From UHGV virus genome UHGV-0362220: a DNA stretch of 25,918 nt. The stretch is one strand, 5' to 3'. Position numbers and translations under genes: made by a program. The notes below the pieces were generated by a model that did not search any database, was not told the origin of the DNA, and worked only from the letters and a program-made list of their open reading frames with translations. This DNA comes from a virus. The stretch's first letter is position 1. Every line of letters starts with the position of its first letter. Positions 1-25,587 of this stretch are shown piece by piece.

Positions 1-74
1 CACAACATCCGAGGACAGCAACACCCGATACTTTTTCCTGGCTTCCAGCAACGGGGTTTCTTCCTCCGTTGCAT
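1..74 (-). CDS. hypothetical protein, N-terminal fragment running off the left edge (MQRRKKPRCWKPGKSIGCCCPRML...)
   Basis: ATG at 74..72 preceded by AGGTGA about 7 nt upstream, 17 nt after the stop of the 92..385 ORF; frame open to the window edge. Only 24 codons visible, cysteine-rich; identity unknown. Confidence 0.2.
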   Translation of the reverse strand, partial: MQRRKKPRCWKPGKSIGCCCPRML

Positions 75-91
75 ATACAGCTCACCTTTTT

Positions 92-385
92 TCACCCACG
101 ATTAACCAACAGCCAGACCAGCAGACACGCCACCACCGGCACAGCAAAATCCATCAGGCTTGCCACATCCCAAGCTCGCGGATCAAAACCGCCCCACCAC
201 GGCATATTCATTCGCTTGCCATGCCCGAACATTTCAATCCAGCGATATTCTGCCTGGGTATGTTCACGCGCAATGAAGAACGTACAACCGGCTATCGCTC
301 CGTAAGCCCAGTTTCCGGTAAAAAGACCAACCAGTATCTGCGCAGCCACAGCACAAAGTGCATGAAGTAAGGGGCTTATATCCAT
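92..385 (-). CDS. hypothetical small membrane protein (97 aa, two predicted transmembrane helices)
   Basis: ATG at 385 preceded by AAGGAGG with a 5 nt spacer; two hydrophobic segments (LLHALCAVAAQILVGLFTG... and LMDFAVPVVACLLVWLLV) flank a W/G-rich loop (NMPWWGGFDPRAW). No family recognised. Confidence 0.6.
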   Translation of the reverse strand: MDISPLLHALCAVAAQILVGLFTGNWAYGAIAGCTFFIAREHTQAEYRWIEMFGHGKRMNMPWWGGFDPRAWDVASLMDFAVPVVACLLVWLLVNRG

Positions 386-397
386 TATTTCCTCCTT

Positions 398-676
398 TCA
401 GCTCCATTCCCGAAGCGGTGTTTCCAGCTCCACGACATAATCAGAGAATACAGAAACATCAAACAAGTCATCAAGAATGCGAATGTTGACAAAATAACCG
501 TCATTCCGGACACAGACAGGTTCTCCCTCTTCTGTTACCCCTGTTTCTGTGTAGGTGAAACCAATTTCATCGACTAACAGTTTATTCTGGAGGTCTTCAT
601 CCTCCTCCCAGTCAAGAGATGACAGGAAGGATTTAAACTCTCTGTTACCAGGAAATTTCAAAGTTAAATCTTTCAT
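398..676 (-). CDS. hypothetical acidic protein (92 aa), translationally coupled to the side tail fiber gene
   Basis: ATG overlaps the stf stop as ATGA (673..676); AAGGAGG lies in the last stf codons 4 nt upstream. Strongly acidic (WEEDEDLQ..., TEEGEP...). Sits where lambda has tfa, but no Tfa similarity recognised. Confidence 0.6.
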   Translation of the reverse strand: MKDLTLKFPGNREFKSFLSSLDWEEDEDLQNKLLVDEIGFTYTETGVTEEGEPVCVRNDGYFVNIRILDDLFDVSVFSDYVVELETPLREWS

Positions 677-2700
677 ACTGCCTCCTTGATTTGCCTGTCA
701 TTTAATTCTTTAAACCAGACTCTGAAATTTCTGATGTGTCCAAACAAATGACGCGTTCCTGCTGCGGTCTGCCCACCAAACCGGTACGATGTTGCTGTAA
801 CTCCAAATATTTTACCATTAAGGTTTGTTGTATAATTACCATTGCATATTGCATTTACTGATAAATCAGATTTAGCTCTCACACCCACAATGAACCTTTC
901 TCCATCTGAGGCAATTTGTGGCTGAACCATTCCTACGTTGGCGCTTATCTTTCCTGTTGCAACAAACCCCAGCGATAAATAATTATCATCAATACTGTGC
1001 CCTCCAACATCAAATATCCTTGGCGCAACATTGGGCGGTGTACTCCAGTTCCTGCTTACTTCGCACAATACCGTAAAAGGCCGTGTTGACAGGTTATTCT
1101 GCGATGGGATAGTAACTACATCACTTGCGCGTGTTGTTGGCATTGTAGTTACAATAAATGACGATGCCGTATTGCCCAGTTCAATTTGCGGCGTCGTCAT
1201 GGTTAATGTTGAGTCATCATAGAATGTCTCATTACTTATTTTATTTGTCATATAAAAAGCACAGTTAACGGTATCAATGTCCGTATTAGCTGTATAAGTG
1301 GCCTCATAGTAGGTCCACTCGCCCTGTTGTTCAGCTTTGGCTGTTATAAGGGATGTATTACCGCTTACTGTTGCGATCCGGGTATCCAGATCAAGATAAG
1401 AGTCAGCAGAGAAGGTATCTGTTCCACCAATAATAACTGAAACTCTTAACCTGCATCGTGCTTTAGCGCCTTTAACCCGGCACGAAAAAGTGAAACATTC
1501 ACCACTTGCCAGCGGGAATCTGTCTGCTGCAACCACACCATGCACAGTATAGCCACCTGTTGTTCCCACTATACTTTCCGTGGGTGTCACCGTGGCATAA
1601 TTGAACCCCTGTTTATCAGTGCCAAATGTTTTATTCAGTGCGGAATGAACAGTCCATGAGTCTGGTTTATTTGAGTTCCTCAGATAATTTGTCCTCTGTC
1701 CTTCAATCAATAAGCCATCGCGCTCAAATCGCGGTTCGTCAACTTCAGCAAGCTTGAGTTGGCCGGACTTATTAATATACGTTGCTGTTGAAGCACGTTT
1801 AAACTTAACAATCTTGTCGCCTGGCATTGTTATTTCATCGTCACCAATAACTATCTTTTTATAAGATGGCGAAAAACCCGTAATCATATCCAGTGAATCG
1901 TTAAACGGTATCCACACATCAGGCAGCGGCGGCACTATATTCGCACAGGGCTCTGCAGTCACTTCCGCTGCGGCTTCTGCGCGGTCTGCCGCCTTTTCAG
2001 CTCGTGTCGCTGCCGACAGAGCCTCATCCTTTTTCTGCCCGGCCTTTGTTGCGTCTGCTGCGGCCTCCCGCGCTTTTGTGGTGGCGACTCCGGCATTTTC
2101 AGCGGCTGACTCTGCATTACGGCGGGAAGCCTCTTCACTGTCTGCGGAGGCTTCTTCTGACGCACGGGCATTTGTCTCTGAACGTTCTGCCGCTGTTGCT
2201 GCGTTTTGTGCGGCTGTTTTTGAAGAAGCTGCCGCTTTCGCGCTGTTACCTGCATTCGTCTCTGATGTTTTCGCCGCGTTCCTGGACGATGCCGCTGCTG
2301 TTTCTGATTTCTTTGCTGCCGCTGCGCTCTGAGAGGCGGCTTCAGCGTTGCGTGCCGCCTCTTCCACCATCTTTTCAAAACGATACAGTGCCTCCGGACA
2401 AACATCATCTTCTGTTGCAGCGCCCAGAAAATCATTCAATGTCCCCGGCTTAGAATCCTCATACACGGTGATGGTCCCGGCATGTGAAGGCGGAAAACCT
2501 TCAACCAGCAGGGCGACGCTGTACTGGCCATACTCAACATCCATGCTGTAACGTCCGGCTTCATCCGGATTTTCTGAGGCCACCGTGTTCACCACAACTG
2601 TGGTGCTGTTACGTTTTGCTTTGAGCTGAATGGTGCAGTTCTGTATCGGTTTTCCTGCACCGTCTTTCAGCACACCTGAAATCTGTACTGCCATATTCAC
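673..2700 (-). CDS. stf: side tail fiber protein (lambda Stf-like N-terminal anchor, Ala/Ser/Glu-rich linker, unrelated C-terminal domain)
   Basis: First ~110 aa (MAVQISGVLKDGAGKPIQNCTIQLKAKRNSTTVVVNTV...EAGRYSMDVEYGQYS...PPSHAGTITVYED) match lambda Stf as recalled; residues ~110-240 are low-complexity A/S/E/K-rich; the C-terminal ~430 aa were not recognised. Confidence 0.85.
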   Translation of the reverse strand: MNMAVQISGVLKDGAGKPIQNCTIQLKAKRNSTTVVVNTVASENPDEAGRYSMDVEYGQYSVALLVEGFPPSHAGTITVYEDSKPGTLNDFLGAATEDDVCPEALYRFEKMVEEAARNAEAASQSAAAAKKSETAAASSRNAAKTSETNAGNSAKAAASSKTAAQNAATAAERSETNARASEEASADSEEASRRNAESAAENAGVATTKAREAAADATKAGQKKDEALSAATRAEKAADRAEAAAEVTAEPCANIVPPLPDVWIPFNDSLDMITGFSPSYKKIVIGDDEITMPGDKIVKFKRASTATYINKSGQLKLAEVDEPRFERDGLLIEGQRTNYLRNSNKPDSWTVHSALNKTFGTDKQGFNYATVTPTESIVGTTGGYTVHGVVAADRFPLASGECFTFSCRVKGAKARCRLRVSVIIGGTDTFSADSYLDLDTRIATVSGNTSLITAKAEQQGEWTYYEATYTANTDIDTVNCAFYMTNKISNETFYDDSTLTMTTPQIELGNTASSFIVTTMPTTRASDVVTIPSQNNLSTRPFTVLCEVSRNWSTPPNVAPRIFDVGGHSIDDNYLSLGFVATGKISANVGMVQPQIASDGERFIVGVRAKSDLSVNAICNGNYTTNLNGKIFGVTATSYRFGGQTAAGTRHLFGHIRNFRVWFKELNDRQIKEAV

Positions 2701-22247: not shown

Positions 22248-22448
22248 ATGTCATCGAAAAACCGGACCCGCAGAACCACAACCCGCAATATCCGTTTCCC
22301 CAATCACATAATTGAACAGATCAACATCGCCCTTGAGCATAAAGGGTCCGGTAACTTTTCAGCGTGGGTTATTGAAGCCTGCAGGAGAAGGCTGGCAACA
22401 GATGCAACGCATCTGCGCCCGGCCAGCATGACAAATAACGAGAAATGA
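22248..22448 (+). CDS. YlcI-like (DUF3950-type) small protein, 66 aa
   Basis: ATG at 22248 with AAGGA 7 nt upstream; MSSKNRTRRTTTRNIRFPN...GSGNFSAWVIEACRRRL resembles the prophage YlcI family as recalled. On the opposite strand to the late operon. Confidence 0.65.
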   Translation: MSSKNRTRRTTTRNIRFPNHIIEQINIALEHKGSGNFSAWVIEACRRRLATDATHLRPASMTNNEK

Positions 22449-22646: not shown

Positions 22647-22862
22647 TCAACACACTGGCTGTAATACCATGCGGCATTTAGCGGCATTCATCGTACACTC
22701 CACGGTTAGCTCTTCATTCGTGGCATTCACCTGAAAGGTCCGGGAGTGTAATTGCGTACATTTACCACTGAACGAACCTTCAACAAGAACACGACCACGC
22801 TGCAAAATACGGAACGGAATTGTTCCCTGAAAAGGTTCTACGGTTACCCGTAATTTCTTCAT
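22647..22862 (-). CDS. hypothetical protein (71 aa), translationally coupled to Rz
   Basis: ATG overlaps the Rz stop (ATGA at 22859..22862) with GGAGGA 4 nt upstream. [13 protein letters not shown]...; no family recognised. Confidence 0.5.
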
Positions 22863-23353
22863 GTATCCTCCGGATAATAAAAAGCCAGCTTAGTGCACTG
22901 AGTGCGGATATATTCCTGCGCCCCTTCCAGCTGCTTCTGCATTGTCATCAACCGTTCTCTGAGGATGAAATAATCCCGTTCAGCGGTGTCTGCCAGTCGG
23001 GGGCCGGTTGCATTATCCACGCTGGAGGTGCCGGTGGCTTCACGCACGGTACCGGGGCAGGTGGCGTTGACCCGCAGGCGCTTACGACCAGCGGCAACAT
23101 CAGCGCGCAGAGTTTCATTTTCAGCTCTCGCATCGGCTAATTCCTTCGTGTATCTGGCATCAAGCGCAGCGACATCTCGCTGGCGCTGCTGCATGTCAGT
23201 AATAGTGGCATTCGCCAGTTTCAGCTCACTGACTTTTTTATCGCGCTGCGCTTTGTAGGTGATGGCGTTATCGCGGTAATGATTCAGCCCCAGACTAAGC
23301 ACACCACAGGCTACCAGCATGACAATAATCACCACACACAGAACACGGTTCAT
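22859..23353 (-). CDS. Rz: i-spanin Rz
   Basis: From ATG 23353 ([17 protein letters not shown]...[16 protein letters not shown]...[23 protein letters not shown]) matches lambda Rz as recalled. The listed 192-aa ORF is a GTG-initiated upstream extension. Confidence 0.9.
22948..23133 (-). CDS. Rz1: o-spanin Rz1 (lipoprotein), embedded in Rz in the +1 frame
   Basis: [25 protein letters not shown]...[27 protein letters not shown] matches lambda Rz1; lipobox VSAC; proline-rich mature part. Confidence 0.85.
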
Positions 23354-23354
23354 A

Positions 23355-23441
23355 TCACCACCAACGGATTGCCCAGACCAGAACAGCAATGGCCACAATA
23401 CGAATGGCAAATGCCATTGCCCGAATAAGTTCAGCACTCAT
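23355..23441 (-). CDS. candidate 28-aa hydrophobic peptide immediately upstream of Rz
   Basis: ATG 23441 to TGA 23357..23355 ([28 protein letters not shown]); the stop overlaps the Rz start region (UGAUAUG). Weak SD (AAAAAG). Absent from the ORF track because it is under 60 aa. Confidence 0.3.
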
Positions 23442-23705
23442 CTTTTTAAAGTTCACGATTTCAGCGCAATGACCAGTTTTGCCAGCCCATACAGCATCGG
23501 AGACACAGCAATACCAACAGCCACCCACTTAATAGCAAAAGCCAGCGCTCTGCTGATGTCATCAGTCACTGTCACCCCAGCAGCCCCGACGAAGACAACA
23601 TCACCCAGGCGAGGGACAGAAAAAGAGCAACCAGCATTAGTGAAAATGAAATACCGACAATCACACACAGGACCTTTGCCGGCGTTATGAGTTTGTCTGA
23701 CATAG

Positions 23706-23865: not shown

Positions 23866-23910
23866 TAAAAACAAAACCCCGCTTGCTGCCAACAAACGGG
23901 GTTTTTACTT
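23866..23910. terminator. bidirectional intrinsic terminator inside the lysis cassette, between endolysin and Rz
   Basis: 9-bp stem AAAACCCCG (23873..23881) / CGGGGTTTT (23897..23905), 15-nt loop; U-rich tracts follow on both strands (plus UUUUUACUUUU; minus UUUUGUUUUUAU). Confidence 0.6.
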
Positions 23911-23995: not shown

Positions 23996-24529
23996 TTATC
24001 TGTCGATTCCCCAGCACGCCAGCGCGCTCTCCTGGTCACGACGGAATACCTGACCGTAACAGTTATTTGAGCGAATACGGCAGTCTCTGCCACCGTCCTT
24101 AATCCACCAGCGAATCGCTTCGCATGCTCCCCTGCGATCACCTGCATTAATTCGTCTGTAAAACGTCGACGGGAAACACTTACCGGGACCAATGTTGTAC
24201 GGACAGAATGACGCGATCCCCGCTTTCTGGGGTTCGGTCAATGGCACTTTGATGTTTTTCTCCACCCATGCCAGCGCCTTATCACGCTCAATGGCGTTAA
24301 CCCGGTCGCATTTTTCCTTCGACAACTTCATGCCCGGAACGACAGGTTTGCCATCCACCAGGATGGCACCGCGGCAGATGGTCCAGATACCCGCGCCATC
24401 ACGGTATGCCGTGGTGTGGTTACCTTCCTTTTCATCCAGAAACTGGTCGAGAATGTCAGGCGCAGGCGCACCAGCGGCAATCAGCGCCAGAACGGCAGCC
24501 GACAGGCCGTATCTGATTTTTGCGTTCAT
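23996..24529 (-). CDS. endolysin, T4-lysozyme (GH24) type with N-terminal signal-anchor-release (SAR) segment
   Basis: Catalytic triad spacing E-9-D-6-T in LDEKEGNHTTAYRDGAGIWT; Gly/Ala-rich weakly hydrophobic N-terminus (GLSAAVLALIAAGAPA); eight cysteines in the catalytic domain. Confidence 0.9.
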   Translation of the reverse strand: MNAKIRYGLSAAVLALIAAGAPAPDILDQFLDEKEGNHTTAYRDGAGIWTICRGAILVDGKPVVPGMKLSKEKCDRVNAIERDKALAWVEKNIKVPLTEPQKAGIASFCPYNIGPGKCFPSTFYRRINAGDRRGACEAIRWWIKDGGRDCRIRSNNCYGQVFRRDQESALACWGIDR

Positions 24530-24634
24530 GGATATTTATCAGGATTTATCGGTTTCTGAGCCCTGGATATGTTTATCAGTTCCAGCCTGTTGCCTCAGGC
24601 TGCTAACAGGTCAATACAATCATGAGGATTATTT

Positions 24635-24907
24635 ATGGACAATAACACCATTTCTCTACAGGAGTTGCTCGACAGCATTTCCAGGCTTCGGGAAGACGTG
24701 AATACCCTTACCGTCGCCTTCTCATATCTGGCATTCTCAATTCCAAGGGAACAGATGCAATCAACGCTGGCATCAATCCAGTTTGAATCATGCAATCCCA
24801 AATGGTCTCAGGAACAACAAGACTCTTTCAGGCGGCTTGCTGTATTACTGGATGAAAAATATGCTGGTAAAATTACCATTTCGGCGGACTCTTCAGAGAA
24901 CCCGTAA
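24635..24907 (+). CDS. hypothetical protein (90 aa) encoded antisense within the lysis cassette
   Basis: ATG 24635 with GAGGA 7-9 nt upstream; protein-like helical sequence; rare codons (AGG, CGG, CTA) and locally lower GC suggest foreign origin; 3' end overlaps the YdfR-like ORF by 35 nt. Confidence 0.45.
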   Translation: MDNNTISLQELLDSISRLREDVNTLTVAFSYLAFSIPREQMQSTLASIQFESCNPKWSQEQQDSFRRLAVLLDEKYAGKITISADSSENP

Positions 24908-25217
24908 TTATTCCCGGTAGTTTTCCTCTGTAGGTTATCAACACATCCTGCGCCTCTAAAATTACGGGGCGCTTTTCCGGCGACTGCTCATCCCCTTCAC
25001 ATAACCCGGCAGCAACATCCAGGAAGACCTGTCTGATGCTCCTTCTGGCTGCTGCCTCATAAAACTCCAGCGCGGCACCTTCAACACGGTCCAGCGAGAT
25101 GTCCAGGTCAAAAATTTCACCGTCAAAGCGTTTTTTGTCCCGTAACGCTAAAGTTACCGTAACTTTATTCTCAAAATTGCGGATCCCTTTCACAATCAGT
25201 TCATAGTTTTGAGTCAT
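24873..25217 (-). CDS. YdfR-like hypothetical protein (114 aa) between holin and endolysin
   Basis: ATG 25217 lies 4 nt after the holin stop with GGGGAGAG upstream. Similar position to ydfR between the holin and lysozyme genes of E. coli prophage Qin (recalled, not verified). Confidence 0.55.
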   Translation of the reverse strand: MTQNYELIVKGIRNFENKVTVTLALRDKKRFDGEIFDLDISLDRVEGAALEFYEAAARRSIRQVFLDVAAGLCEGDEQSPEKRPVILEAQDVLITYRGKLPGIITGSLKSPPKW

Positions 25218-25221
25218 TGAA

Positions 25222-25437
25222 TTACTCTCCCCGTGCCGCCTTACGACGGTCCTCTCTGATTTTGAAATACAGGTTAGTCAGATATGTCAGCAGCCCAAAC
25301 AGCAGACTCCCCAGCACGCCTATTGCCGCCCACTGAGACGGGGAAACCCTGTCCAGCAACTGCAGGAACCAGTAGCCCGTTCCCACCGCTGACGTGGTGT
25401 ATGACACACCTGTTGTGATTTTTTCCATCTGGTACAT
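25222..25437 (-). CDS. class II holin / pinholin of phage 21 S type, with dual-start motif
   Basis: [71 protein letters not shown]; C-terminal two-thirds match phage 21 S as recalled. Starts at M1 (25437) and M4 (25428); SD GGGAGA upstream. The listed 97-aa ORF contains the terminator and is not used. Confidence 0.85.
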
Positions 25438-25472: not shown

Positions 25473-25503
25473 AAAAAAAGCCACCAGTTAAGTACTGATG
25501 GCT
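25473..25503 (-). terminator. tR'-like intrinsic terminator immediately upstream of the holin gene
   Basis: Minus-strand RNA: stem GCCAUCAG, loop UACUUAA, stem CUGGUGGC (8 bp, one G-U), then UUUUUUUAU; about 35 nt upstream of the holin start. Confidence 0.6.
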
Positions 25504-25587
25504 CTGATAACTCATGCAGGCATCTCAGACGACCCACTGACACTACCGGTGAGTTTAACGATACCTTCCATTTGACTGGCTCACTTT

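What the first reader, a model, noticed from the sequence alone, without database searches (positions are those of the whole stretch)
24530..25221. Antisense-encoded 90-aa gene plus YdfR-like ORF inserted between pinholin and SAR endolysin
The holin is followed not by the endolysin but by a coupled 114-aa YdfR-like ORF and then a converging plus-strand 90-aa ORF (24635..24907) with its own SD and rare codons. The two ORFs overlap tail-to-tail by 35 nt. A 7-bp stem hairpin (CAGCCTG ttgcct CAGGCTG, 24583..24602) sits in the 105-bp region between the endolysin start and the plus-strand ORF. A gene transcribed against the late operon is a classic moron layout and could be expressed in the lysogen, for example for exclusion, anti-defence or lysis timing.
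Basis: partly seen in the sequence, partly recalled or inferred. Interest (0 to 1): 0.55.

Follow-up and report, generated by a model that had tools for sequence, protein, structure and literature searches.

The report
Small antisense cargo gene in lysis cassette
Between the holin and the endolysin of this E. coli prophage sits a real, conserved 90-residue gene on the opposite strand; databases already list it as hypothetical protein "Ybl58", so it is an ordinary phage cargo gene ("moron") of unknown function rather than a new kind of system.

Summary
The described layout is exactly there. On the minus strand lie an S21-type holin (25222..25437), YdfR/DUF1327 (24873..25217) and an R21-like lysozyme (23996..24529). 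A plus-strand 90-aa ORF (24635..24907) sits between YdfR and the lysozyme and overlaps YdfR tail-to-tail by 35 nt.

The ORF is a genuine gene. Its dN/dS is about 0.28 in its own frame, it stays open in all homologues, and it has a conserved Shine-Dalgarno sequence. It is already annotated: RefSeq WP_000369850.1 "hypothetical protein", UniProt "Ybl58", PHROG 2411. About 21% of complete E. coli genomes carry it.

A segment of about 290 nt carrying the ORF is present or absent between otherwise colinear cassettes. O157 prophages and K-12 Qin lack it. Another strain has an unrelated 79-aa antisense ORF at the same spot. The segment has low GC and all its Arg codons are rare. This fits a moron.

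YdfR is a regular part of such cassettes, not an insertion. No convincing promoter or terminator was found, and the hairpin is unremarkable.

The protein is a soluble, acidic three-helix protein with no informative structural match. Distant relatives are conserved chromosomal genes next to bssS, usually between dinI and bssS, in Serratia, Erwiniaceae and Sodalis. Function is unknown; a protein-binding modulator is the most likely reading.

The parts
25222..25437 (-). S21-type class II holin (71 aa, Met1/Met4 dual start)
   Evidence: Pfam PF04971, E = 9e-33. PGAP calls it 'class II holin family protein'.
24873..25217 (-). YdfR / DUF1327 protein (114 aa), soluble, function unknown; a regular member of this cassette type
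   Evidence: Pfam PF07041, E = 7e-43. phrog_406. Present without ORF90 in O157 and K-12 Qin. No relative among solved structures.
24635..24907 (+). ORF90 = Ybl58 / PHROG 2411 family gene: 90 aa, pI 4.5, three predicted helices (8-35, 38-52, 59-76) and a disordered tail
   Evidence: PGAP WP_000369850.1. phrog_2411, E = 1e-58. UniProt name Ybl58. dN/dS 0.28. AF2 pLDDT 82.
24624..24628 (+). Shine-Dalgarno GAGGA, 6 nt before the ATG
   Evidence: Read from the sequence. (G/A)AGGATT(A/G)TTTATG is kept in all E. coli and E. albertii variants.
24590..24620 (+). Only conserved promoter-like candidate: TTGCCT, 19-nt spacer, TACAAT. Weak.
   Evidence: Own scan. The tool's standard scan finds none. The inferred start would fall at about 24627, inside the Shine-Dalgarno sequence.
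24583..24602 (.). 7-bp inverted repeat CAGCCTG-N6-CAGGCTG; its loop is the candidate -35 element
   Evidence: z = -2.1. Reduced to 5 bp in BL21 and broken in E. albertii. No T-run on either strand.
24594..24884 (.). Approximate present/absent segment relative to the O157-type cassette. It carries the ORF90 upstream region and codons 1-83.
   Evidence: MAFFT alignment with L006. GC 43%.
24950..24976 (+). Hairpin GCGCCTC-N9-GGGGCGC followed by UUUU, inside ydfR on the antisense side; a possible weak terminator for ORF90
   Evidence: Fold energy -12.3 kcal/mol, z = -1.7. Retained in L017, where the YdfR N-terminal part is replaced. Confounded by ydfR coding constraint.
24530..24574 (.). Leader of the lysozyme gene, a junction sequence shared by all cassette states (contains CCCTGGATAT)
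   Evidence: Conserved in L002, L004, L005 and L006. The motif also lies upstream of the Citrobacter homologue.
23996..24529 (-). Lysozyme (177 aa) with an N-terminal Gly/Ala-rich SAR-like segment
   Evidence: Pfam PF00959. Matches R21 3hde and RrrD 4zpu.

Best explanation
ORF90 is a genuine accessory ("moron"-type) gene of lambdoid prophages. It belongs to the uncharacterised Ybl58 / PHROG 2411 family and sits at the module boundary between the holin-YdfR unit and the endolysin unit, facing against the late operon.

It encodes a soluble, acidic, roughly 10-kDa three-helix protein with no membrane segment and no recognisable catalytic motif. The most likely mode of action is therefore stoichiometric binding to another protein, host or phage, as a small modulator or "connector". 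It is unlikely to be part of the lysis machinery.

Shown here:
- It is protein-coding and under purifying selection.
- It is present or absent between colinear cassettes.
- Its base composition and codon use differ from the flanks.
- It occurs without an intact YdfR.
- It has distant chromosomal relatives in other Enterobacterales.

Inferred only:
- Independent transcription from the plus strand.
- Expression in the lysogen.
- The protein-binding mode of action.
For: - Coding: median dN/dS is 0.28 in the ORF frame against 1.0 to 1.4 in the other plus-strand frames. The one antisense frame with a low ratio is broken by stops in the window itself and in most homologues.
- Full-length homologues at 58-99% identity occur in E. 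coli, Shigella, E. albertii, E. ruysiae and Citrobacter.
- Profile searches reach about 90-aa proteins at 25-40% identity in Serratia, Winslowiella, Mixta, Pantoea and Sodalis.
- Present/absent state: O157 prophages and K-12 Qin have holin-YdfR-lysozyme without the ORF. Strain PYO5 has an unrelated 79-aa plus-strand ORF (phrog_21218) at the same spot.
- Frequency: ORF90 is in 1130 of 5426 complete E. coli genomes; the 79-aa alternative is in 102.
- Composition: GC is 43-45% against 55% for the window, and all Arg codons are rare.
- Independence from neighbours: the gene is kept where the YdfR N-terminal part is replaced (L017). It stands alone beside an AIDA-type autotransporter on a plasmid, where homology runs only from the Shine-Dalgarno sequence to about codon 80.
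- The gene that follows on the late transcript varies. It is a SAR-type lysozyme in E. coli, a lambda-S-type holin plus CHAP enzyme in Citrobacter, and a second holin pair plus M15 peptidase in phiSTEC1575-Stx2k.
- Protein: AF2 pLDDT is 82, with three helices and a disordered tail. pI is 4.5 and GRAVY is -0.43.
- Moron definition: PMC3594210.
Against: - No convincing promoter was found, and only a weak terminator candidate. The "independent transcription unit" part of the moron definition is therefore unproven.
- There is no expression data.
- No homologue has a known function, so the protein-binding mode is an argument from size, charge and fold only.
- In all three phage contexts examined individually, and in at least 77 of 80 IMG/VR loci, the gene is convergent with a YdfR-type 3' end. 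This could mean a functional link with YdfR rather than simple adjacency.
Confidence: 0.6

Rival explanations
1. Lysis-timing regulator. Either convergent transcription of ORF90 damps the late transcript across ydfR and the lysozyme leader, or the protein binds YdfR, the holin or the endolysin to tune lysis.
For: - The position inside the lysis cassette and the 35-nt tail-to-tail overlap with ydfR.
- The convergent junction with a YdfR-type C-terminus (ITGSLKSPPKW / ITGSLRVPMKL) is kept even in Citrobacter and in the Stx2k phage, where the downstream lysis genes differ.
Against: - Many functional-looking cassettes lack the gene (O157, Qin).
- An unrelated ORF can occupy the slot.
- Homologues exist on a plasmid and as chromosomal genes beside bssS, with no lysis genes nearby.
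- The protein has no membrane segment, unlike the membrane-anchored antiholins.
Confidence: 0.15
2. Anti-defence or superinfection-exclusion factor expressed from the prophage. This is a specific sub-case of the moron reading.
For: - Small acidic phage proteins often act as inhibitors of host systems (general knowledge).
- The moron-like features listed above.
Against: - No PADLOC match.
- No similarity to any solved structure or annotated viral protein.
- The conserved chromosomal relatives, in a housekeeping neighbourhood, argue for a cellular regulatory role rather than a phage-specific weapon.
Confidence: 0.12
3. Toxin-antitoxin-like or otherwise obligate pair with YdfR.
For: Convergent overlap and very frequent co-occurrence in E. 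coli.
Against: - YdfR occurs without ORF90.
- ORF90 occurs without an intact YdfR.
- The genes are convergent rather than co-transcribed.
Confidence: 0.05
4. Spurious ORF in a non-coding spacer.
For: Antisense ORFs of this length occur by chance in this region. No Pfam family matches.
Against: - dN/dS of 0.28 and a third-position excess of substitutions.
- The frame is open in every homologue down to 25% identity.
- HMM E-values reach about 1e-34.
- The AF2 model is confident.
Confidence: 0.02

Closest known systems
Lambdoid-phage morons such as lambda bor (and its homologue iss) and lom
   Same: - A small gene set against or beside the late operon, near the lysis genes.
- Present or absent between otherwise colinear phages.
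- Atypical base composition.
- iss lies in just such a position after Rz in related loci. The definition is in PMC3594210.
   Different: - bor and lom encode outer-membrane proteins and have documented promoters and lysogen expression (my own knowledge).
- ORF90 is cytoplasmic, has no demonstrated promoter or terminator, and sits inside the holin-endolysin interval, overlapping ydfR.
Ybl58 / PHROG 2411 family (RefSeq WP_000369850.1 and relatives)
   Same: It is this family. The match to the PHROG profile is full-length at E = 1e-58, and identical proteins sit on more than 1000 contigs.
   Different: Nothing differs. The family has no assigned function and no Pfam entry.
Chromosomal ~90-aa genes next to bssS, usually between dinI and bssS, in Serratia, Winslowiella, Mixta and Sodalis
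   Same: - Same length.
- Same three-helix pattern and motifs (ELL..I, AFSYL.F, LE.QN).
- Profile E-values around 1e-24.
   Different: - Only 25-35% identical.
- They lie in a conserved housekeeping neighbourhood, pyrC-dinI-X-bssS-solA, not in phages.
- Also uncharacterised.
Small prophage-borne or host 'connector' proteins such as the anti-adaptor IraM (encoded antisense upstream of the holin in the same prophage)
   Same: Small, soluble, prophage-carried, opposite in orientation to the late genes, and acting by binding a host regulator (the last from my own knowledge of IraM).
   Different: No sequence or structural similarity was found. The analogy is functional speculation only.
K-12 Qin essQ-ydfR-rrrQ and phage 21 S-R lysis cassettes
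   Same: Same holin family, same YdfR family (for Qin) and same lysozyme family.
   Different: In Qin, ydfR overlaps the rrrQ start by 4 nt and there is no antisense gene.

Membership tests
Moron (independent cargo transcription unit in a phage genome; PMC3594210) | Present or absent between otherwise colinear phage genomes | tested here: met
   A segment of about 291 nt (24594..24884) is missing in the O157-type cassette. Qin lacks it too, and a different ORF fills the slot in PYO5.
Moron (independent cargo transcription unit in a phage genome; PMC3594210) | Own promoter | tested here: inconclusive
   The standard scan finds none. The only conserved candidate is TTGnnT, 19-nt spacer, TAcAAT, ending 15 nt before the ATG.
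Moron (independent cargo transcription unit in a phage genome; PMC3594210) | Own terminator | tested here: inconclusive
   Hairpin 24950..24972 plus UUUU, -12.3 kcal/mol, z = -1.7. It lies in ydfR coding sequence, so its conservation is uninformative.
Moron (independent cargo transcription unit in a phage genome; PMC3594210) | Base composition and codon usage differ from the flanks | tested here: met
   GC is 43-45% against 55%. All five Arg codons are AGG or CGG.
Moron (independent cargo transcription unit in a phage genome; PMC3594210) | Expressed from the repressed prophage | not testable with these tools
   Needs strand-specific RNA-seq, Ribo-seq or reporter fusions.
Ybl58 / PHROG 2411 | Full-length match to the family profile | tested here: met
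   phrog_2411, E = 1.1e-58, residues 1-90 of 90. An exact sequence in the collection is named Ybl58.
YdfR / DUF1327 (neighbouring gene) | Pfam PF07041 above the gathering score | tested here: met
   145 bits against a cut-off of 25.
Phage 21-type pinholin | Membership of PF04971, about 70 aa, dual start motif | tested here: met
   112 bits against a cut-off of 26, 71 aa, begins MYQM. Pinhole formation itself cannot be tested here.
SAR endolysin | T4-lysozyme-type domain related to R21, with an N-terminal weakly hydrophobic Gly/Ala-rich signal-anchor-release segment | tested here: inconclusive
   The catalytic domain matches 3hde, 3hdf and 4zpu at about 1e-16. The N-terminus YGLSAAVLALIAAGAPAP looks SAR-like by eye. 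Membrane release was not tested.
Toxin-antitoxin or obligate two-gene module (YdfR + ORF90) | The partners always occur together | tested here: not met
   YdfR occurs alone in O157 and Qin. ORF90 occurs alone on a plasmid and with a disrupted YdfR in L017.
Membrane-anchored antiholin | Transmembrane segment or holin-derived sequence | tested here: not met
   No hydrophobic stretch longer than 12 residues, GRAVY -0.43, all-helical soluble model.
Known anti-phage defence proteins (PADLOC) | Match to any PADLOC model | tested here: not met
   No families at E <= 0.1 for ORF90, YdfR, the 79-aa alternative or the Serratia relative.
AroQ chorismate-mutase-like three-helix fold | Significant structural and sequence similarity, including active-site residues | tested here: not met

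The most novel reading that the evidence does not exclude
Ybl58-family proteins are an unrecognised class of small Enterobacterales regulators. Their native copy sits next to bssS, usually between dinI and bssS, in a stress and biofilm neighbourhood. Lambdoid phages and a virulence plasmid have captured the gene. In this reading the prophage copy is transcribed against the late operon and reprograms a host stress or biofilm pathway, or couples that pathway to lysis timing through its conserved convergent overlap with ydfR.
Probability: 0.15. Interest if true: 0.5.

Novelty: new member of a known kind. Interest (0 to 1): 0.25.

Why it matters
About one in five sequenced E. coli carries this gene, including laboratory B strains (BL21/BLR), UPEC UTI89, O55:H7 and an Stx2k-converting phage. 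Nothing is known about its role.

If it acts in the lysogen, it would add one more small prophage-encoded modulator of host physiology. Its conserved chromosomal relatives next to dinI and bssS offer a handle on a wider uncharacterised family.

As a genome feature it is an ordinary moron at a mosaic junction. It does not challenge current understanding of phage lysis.

Tried and rejected
- **Family libraries.** Pfam, NCBIfam and PADLOC gave nothing for ORF90. The only hit was a meaningless one, anti_silent_Mip at E = 0.037.
- **Solved structures by sequence.** A profile search of PDB sequences gave nothing below E = 0.2.
- **LexA boxes.** None were found upstream of the phage or chromosomal copies. 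An alignment of the chromosomal upstream regions shows only the dinI terminator.
- **Relationship to BssS or to the alternative 79-aa ORF.** hhalign probability was 0.1% for each.
- **Homology of the Citrobacter 238-aa convergent ORF to YdfR.** BLASTP gave E = 0.7, so this is not supported. Only the last 13 or so residues and the adjoining DNA are alike.
- **Antisense-frame coding.** This was rejected because stop codons interrupt that frame.
- **Hairpin as terminator or conserved operator.** This was rejected. There is no T-run, the stem is not conserved, and such hairpins are not rare in the window.
- **BL21 versus E. ruysiae as an ancient-prophage test of selection.** The DNA is identical, so the comparison is uninformative.
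- **Literature.** No paper mentions Ybl58. Searches for DUF1327 and ydfR found nothing functional.
- **Counting the "empty" cassette state.** A junction query does not give a clean count, because BLAST pieces are joined across the insertion.

Full report
**Observation**

The window is the late region of a lambdoid E. coli prophage, read on the minus strand. It is 100% identical to many sequenced strains.

- An S21-type class II holin lies at 25222..25437 (Pfam PF04971).
- A 114-aa YdfR/DUF1327 protein lies at 24873..25217 and starts 4 nt after the holin stop.
- A plus-strand 90-aa ORF lies at 24635..24907, with GAGGA 6 nt upstream of its ATG.
- The ORF overlaps ydfR tail-to-tail by 35 nt.
- A 105-nt spacer separates the ORF from the lysozyme start.
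- A 177-aa lysozyme lies at 23996..24529. It is related to the solved phage 21 and RrrD lysozymes.
- The inverted repeat CAGCCTG-N6-CAGGCTG is at 24583..24602.
- All five Arg codons of the ORF are rare, and its GC is 45% against 55% for the window.

**Is the ORF a gene?**

Length alone says nothing, because the same 3.4 kb contains other 90-aa ORFs that are clearly spurious. Conservation settles the question.

- Seven gap-free variants from E. coli and E. albertii, 71-88% identical as proteins, were compared. Median dN/dS over codons 1-79, outside the ydfR overlap, is 0.28. The two other plus-strand frames give 1.0 and 1.4. Variable sites fall 21/12/40 on codon positions 1/2/3.
- One antisense frame also shows a low ratio. 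This is expected when third positions coincide. That frame is broken by stop codons in the window itself and in most homologues, including Citrobacter, the plasmid copy and the distant chromosomal relatives.
- The plus-strand frame is open in every homologue.
- Frameshifted copies exist but are rare compared with intact clusters of 70 to 370 member sequences, each seen on 1000 or more contigs.

**Already in the databases**

PGAP annotates the ORF as hypothetical protein WP_000369850.1. PHROGs holds it as phrog_2411, function unknown. UniProt entries carry the name Ybl58. At least 80% of the 380-nt region is present in 1130 of 5426 complete E. coli genomes. Carriers include BLR(DE3), UTI89 and O55:H7 CB9615 and three deposited phages, one of them Stx2k-converting. 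No paper in the searchable library mentions it.

**Anatomy of the slot**

Alignment of cassette variants shows that an O157 prophage has holin, YdfR (114 aa) and lysozyme with only 50 nt between ydfR and the lysozyme. The segment at about 24594..24884 is absent there. The flanks are colinear: the lysozyme leader 24530..24574 on one side, and the last codons of ydfR on the other.

Other states of the same site:

- K-12 Qin has essQ-ydfR-rrrQ, with ydfR overlapping rrrQ by 4 nt.
- Strain CUVET21-PYO5 carries an unrelated 79-aa plus-strand ORF (phrog_21218) at the same place. This state is in 102 genomes.

The site is therefore a variable slot at a mosaic boundary. YdfR is a regular cassette member, not an insertion. 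Whether the O157 state is ancestral or a deletion could not be resolved.

The last seven ORF90 codons lie on DNA that is also the antisense of the YdfR C-terminus. In Citrobacter the homologous ORF stops seven codons earlier, at a TAG where E. coli has GCG. The DNA beyond that point remains homologous.

**Linkage**

The gene that follows on the late transcript varies among carriers:

- a SAR-type lysozyme in E. coli (at least 77 of 80 IMG/VR loci show lysozyme on one side and YdfR on the other);
- a lambda-S-type holin plus CHAP enzyme in Citrobacter meridianamericanus;
- a second holin pair plus M15 peptidase in phiSTEC1575-Stx2k.

In all of these the ORF stays convergent with a YdfR-type 3' end.

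The gene is nevertheless not dependent on YdfR. In L017 the N-terminal two-thirds of ydfR are replaced and ORF90 is intact. On plasmid pK99B_1 and related contigs, a 60%-identical copy sits alone after an AIDA-type autotransporter. Nucleotide homology there runs only from the Shine-Dalgarno sequence to about codon 80.

**Wider family**

A profile search of 1.8 billion representative proteins, followed by a profile search of the 5.8-billion-protein set, found 239 relatives. All are about 90 aa, all are "hypothetical", and none has a Pfam domain. Shared motifs are ELL..I, AFSYL.F and LE.QN.

In Serratia, Winslowiella, Mixta and Sodalis these are single chromosomal genes in the conserved order pyrC-dinI-X-bssS-solA. 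One further contig shows X-bssS-solA. A second Sodalis-type paralogue lies near DUF892 and DUF1883 genes. The phage gene therefore looks like a captured, diverged copy of a cellular small protein. X is not related to BssS.

**Protein**

With a 59-sequence alignment, AlphaFold2 gives pLDDT 82. It predicts three helices (8-35, 38-52, 59-76) and a disordered tail at 80-90. The protein is acidic (pI 4.5) and hydrophilic (GRAVY -0.43), and it has no membrane segment. Structural searches return only generic helical matches. Sequence searches of the PDB, NCBIfam and PADLOC return nothing.

**Expression signals**

The Shine-Dalgarno sequence is strong and conserved. No sigma-70 promoter passes the standard scan. 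The only element conserved among variants is TTGnnT, a 19-nt spacer, then TAcAAT at 24590..24620. Its predicted start would fall inside the Shine-Dalgarno sequence.

Any plus-strand transcript must start after the bidirectional terminator at 23873..23905. A hairpin followed by UUUU at 24950..24976 could end the transcript. It is weak (z = -1.7) and lies in ydfR coding sequence.

The 24583..24602 repeat folds at z = -2.1. The window holds 21 such hairpin hits against about 9 in shuffles. The stem is reduced to 5 bp in BL21 and broken in E. albertii, and it has no T-run. A hairpin of different sequence occupies the same position in the PYO5 and Citrobacter versions. It may therefore belong to the junction rather than to the gene. 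This remains unexplained.

**Interpretation**

The best-supported reading is a moron-type cargo gene encoding a small soluble protein that acts by binding another protein (confidence 0.6). Coding status and present/absent polymorphism are shown. Independent transcription, lysogen expression and mode of action are inferred.

The rivals are:

- a lysis-timing role through antisense transcription or binding to lysis proteins (0.15);
- an anti-defence or exclusion role (0.12);
- an obligate pair with YdfR (0.05);
- a spurious ORF (0.02).

**Verdict**

The feature is an ordinary, already annotated cargo gene of unknown function. The modest new points are:

- the demonstration of purifying selection;
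- the multi-state slot at the YdfR-endolysin boundary;
- the link to a conserved chromosomal gene family next to dinI and bssS.

Interest is 0.25.

Noticed in passing
window 23873..23905, with small ORFs at 23355..23703: A strong bidirectional terminator-like hairpin (15 bp, T-runs on both sides) lies just after the lysozyme stop. On the minus strand it is followed by three tiny annotated hypothetical ORFs, one of them 43 aa and transmembrane-like, before Rz/Rz1 (22859..23353). This looks like a second inserted segment inside the lysis cassette.
   Followed up: no
window 25477..25505 (minus strand): A terminator-like hairpin with a T-run lies between the SASA-family esterase gene (25588 to the window end) and the holin. 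It is presumably read through by Q-modified polymerase.
   Followed up: no
window ~22248..22448 (plus strand): A YlcI/YnfO-family gene is another small gene set against the late operon. It lies between Rz and the HNH endonuclease and terminase genes.
   Followed up: no
window 1..2049: An IS21-family ISEc12 element (istA, 1..1476) truncates an Ail/Lom-family gene (1612..2049) at the tail end of the prophage.
   Followed up: no
L005 2134..2373 (E. coli CUVET21-PYO5): The same slot between ydfR and the lysozyme holds an unrelated 79-aa plus-strand ORF (phrog_21218). It is present in 102 of 5426 genomes. Its upstream region carries a different hairpin, CGTCAGTG-N6-CACTGGCG, which also precedes the Citrobacter Ybl58 homologue.
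   Followed up: partly
L008 5087..6847 (Citrobacter meridianamericanus prophage): A HicA/HicB pair and a pertussis-toxin-S1-like ADP-ribosyltransferase gene lie just upstream of the lysis region.
   Followed up: no
L017 1089..1623: A ParE/ParD toxin-antitoxin pair is inserted between the lysozyme and a Rha-type antirepressor gene in a related prophage. In the same locus the N-terminal part of ydfR is replaced.
   Followed up: partly
L028 (phage phiSTEC1575-Stx2k) 1285..3303: S21-type holin, YdfR and ORF90 are followed by a second holin pair and an M15 peptidase instead of a lysozyme. The phage therefore carries two holin systems in tandem.
   Followed up: no
L001 9303..9638 (same prophage, beyond the window) and L028 3569..3892: An IraM anti-adaptor gene lies antisense to the late genes upstream of the holin, both in this prophage and in the Stx2k phage.
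   Followed up: no
L002 (BLR(DE3)) and L007 (E. ruysiae): In B strains the cassette sits between sieB/ydaF and trkG, in a Rac-like remnant. The region is identical at the DNA level in an E. ruysiae genome.
   Followed up: partly
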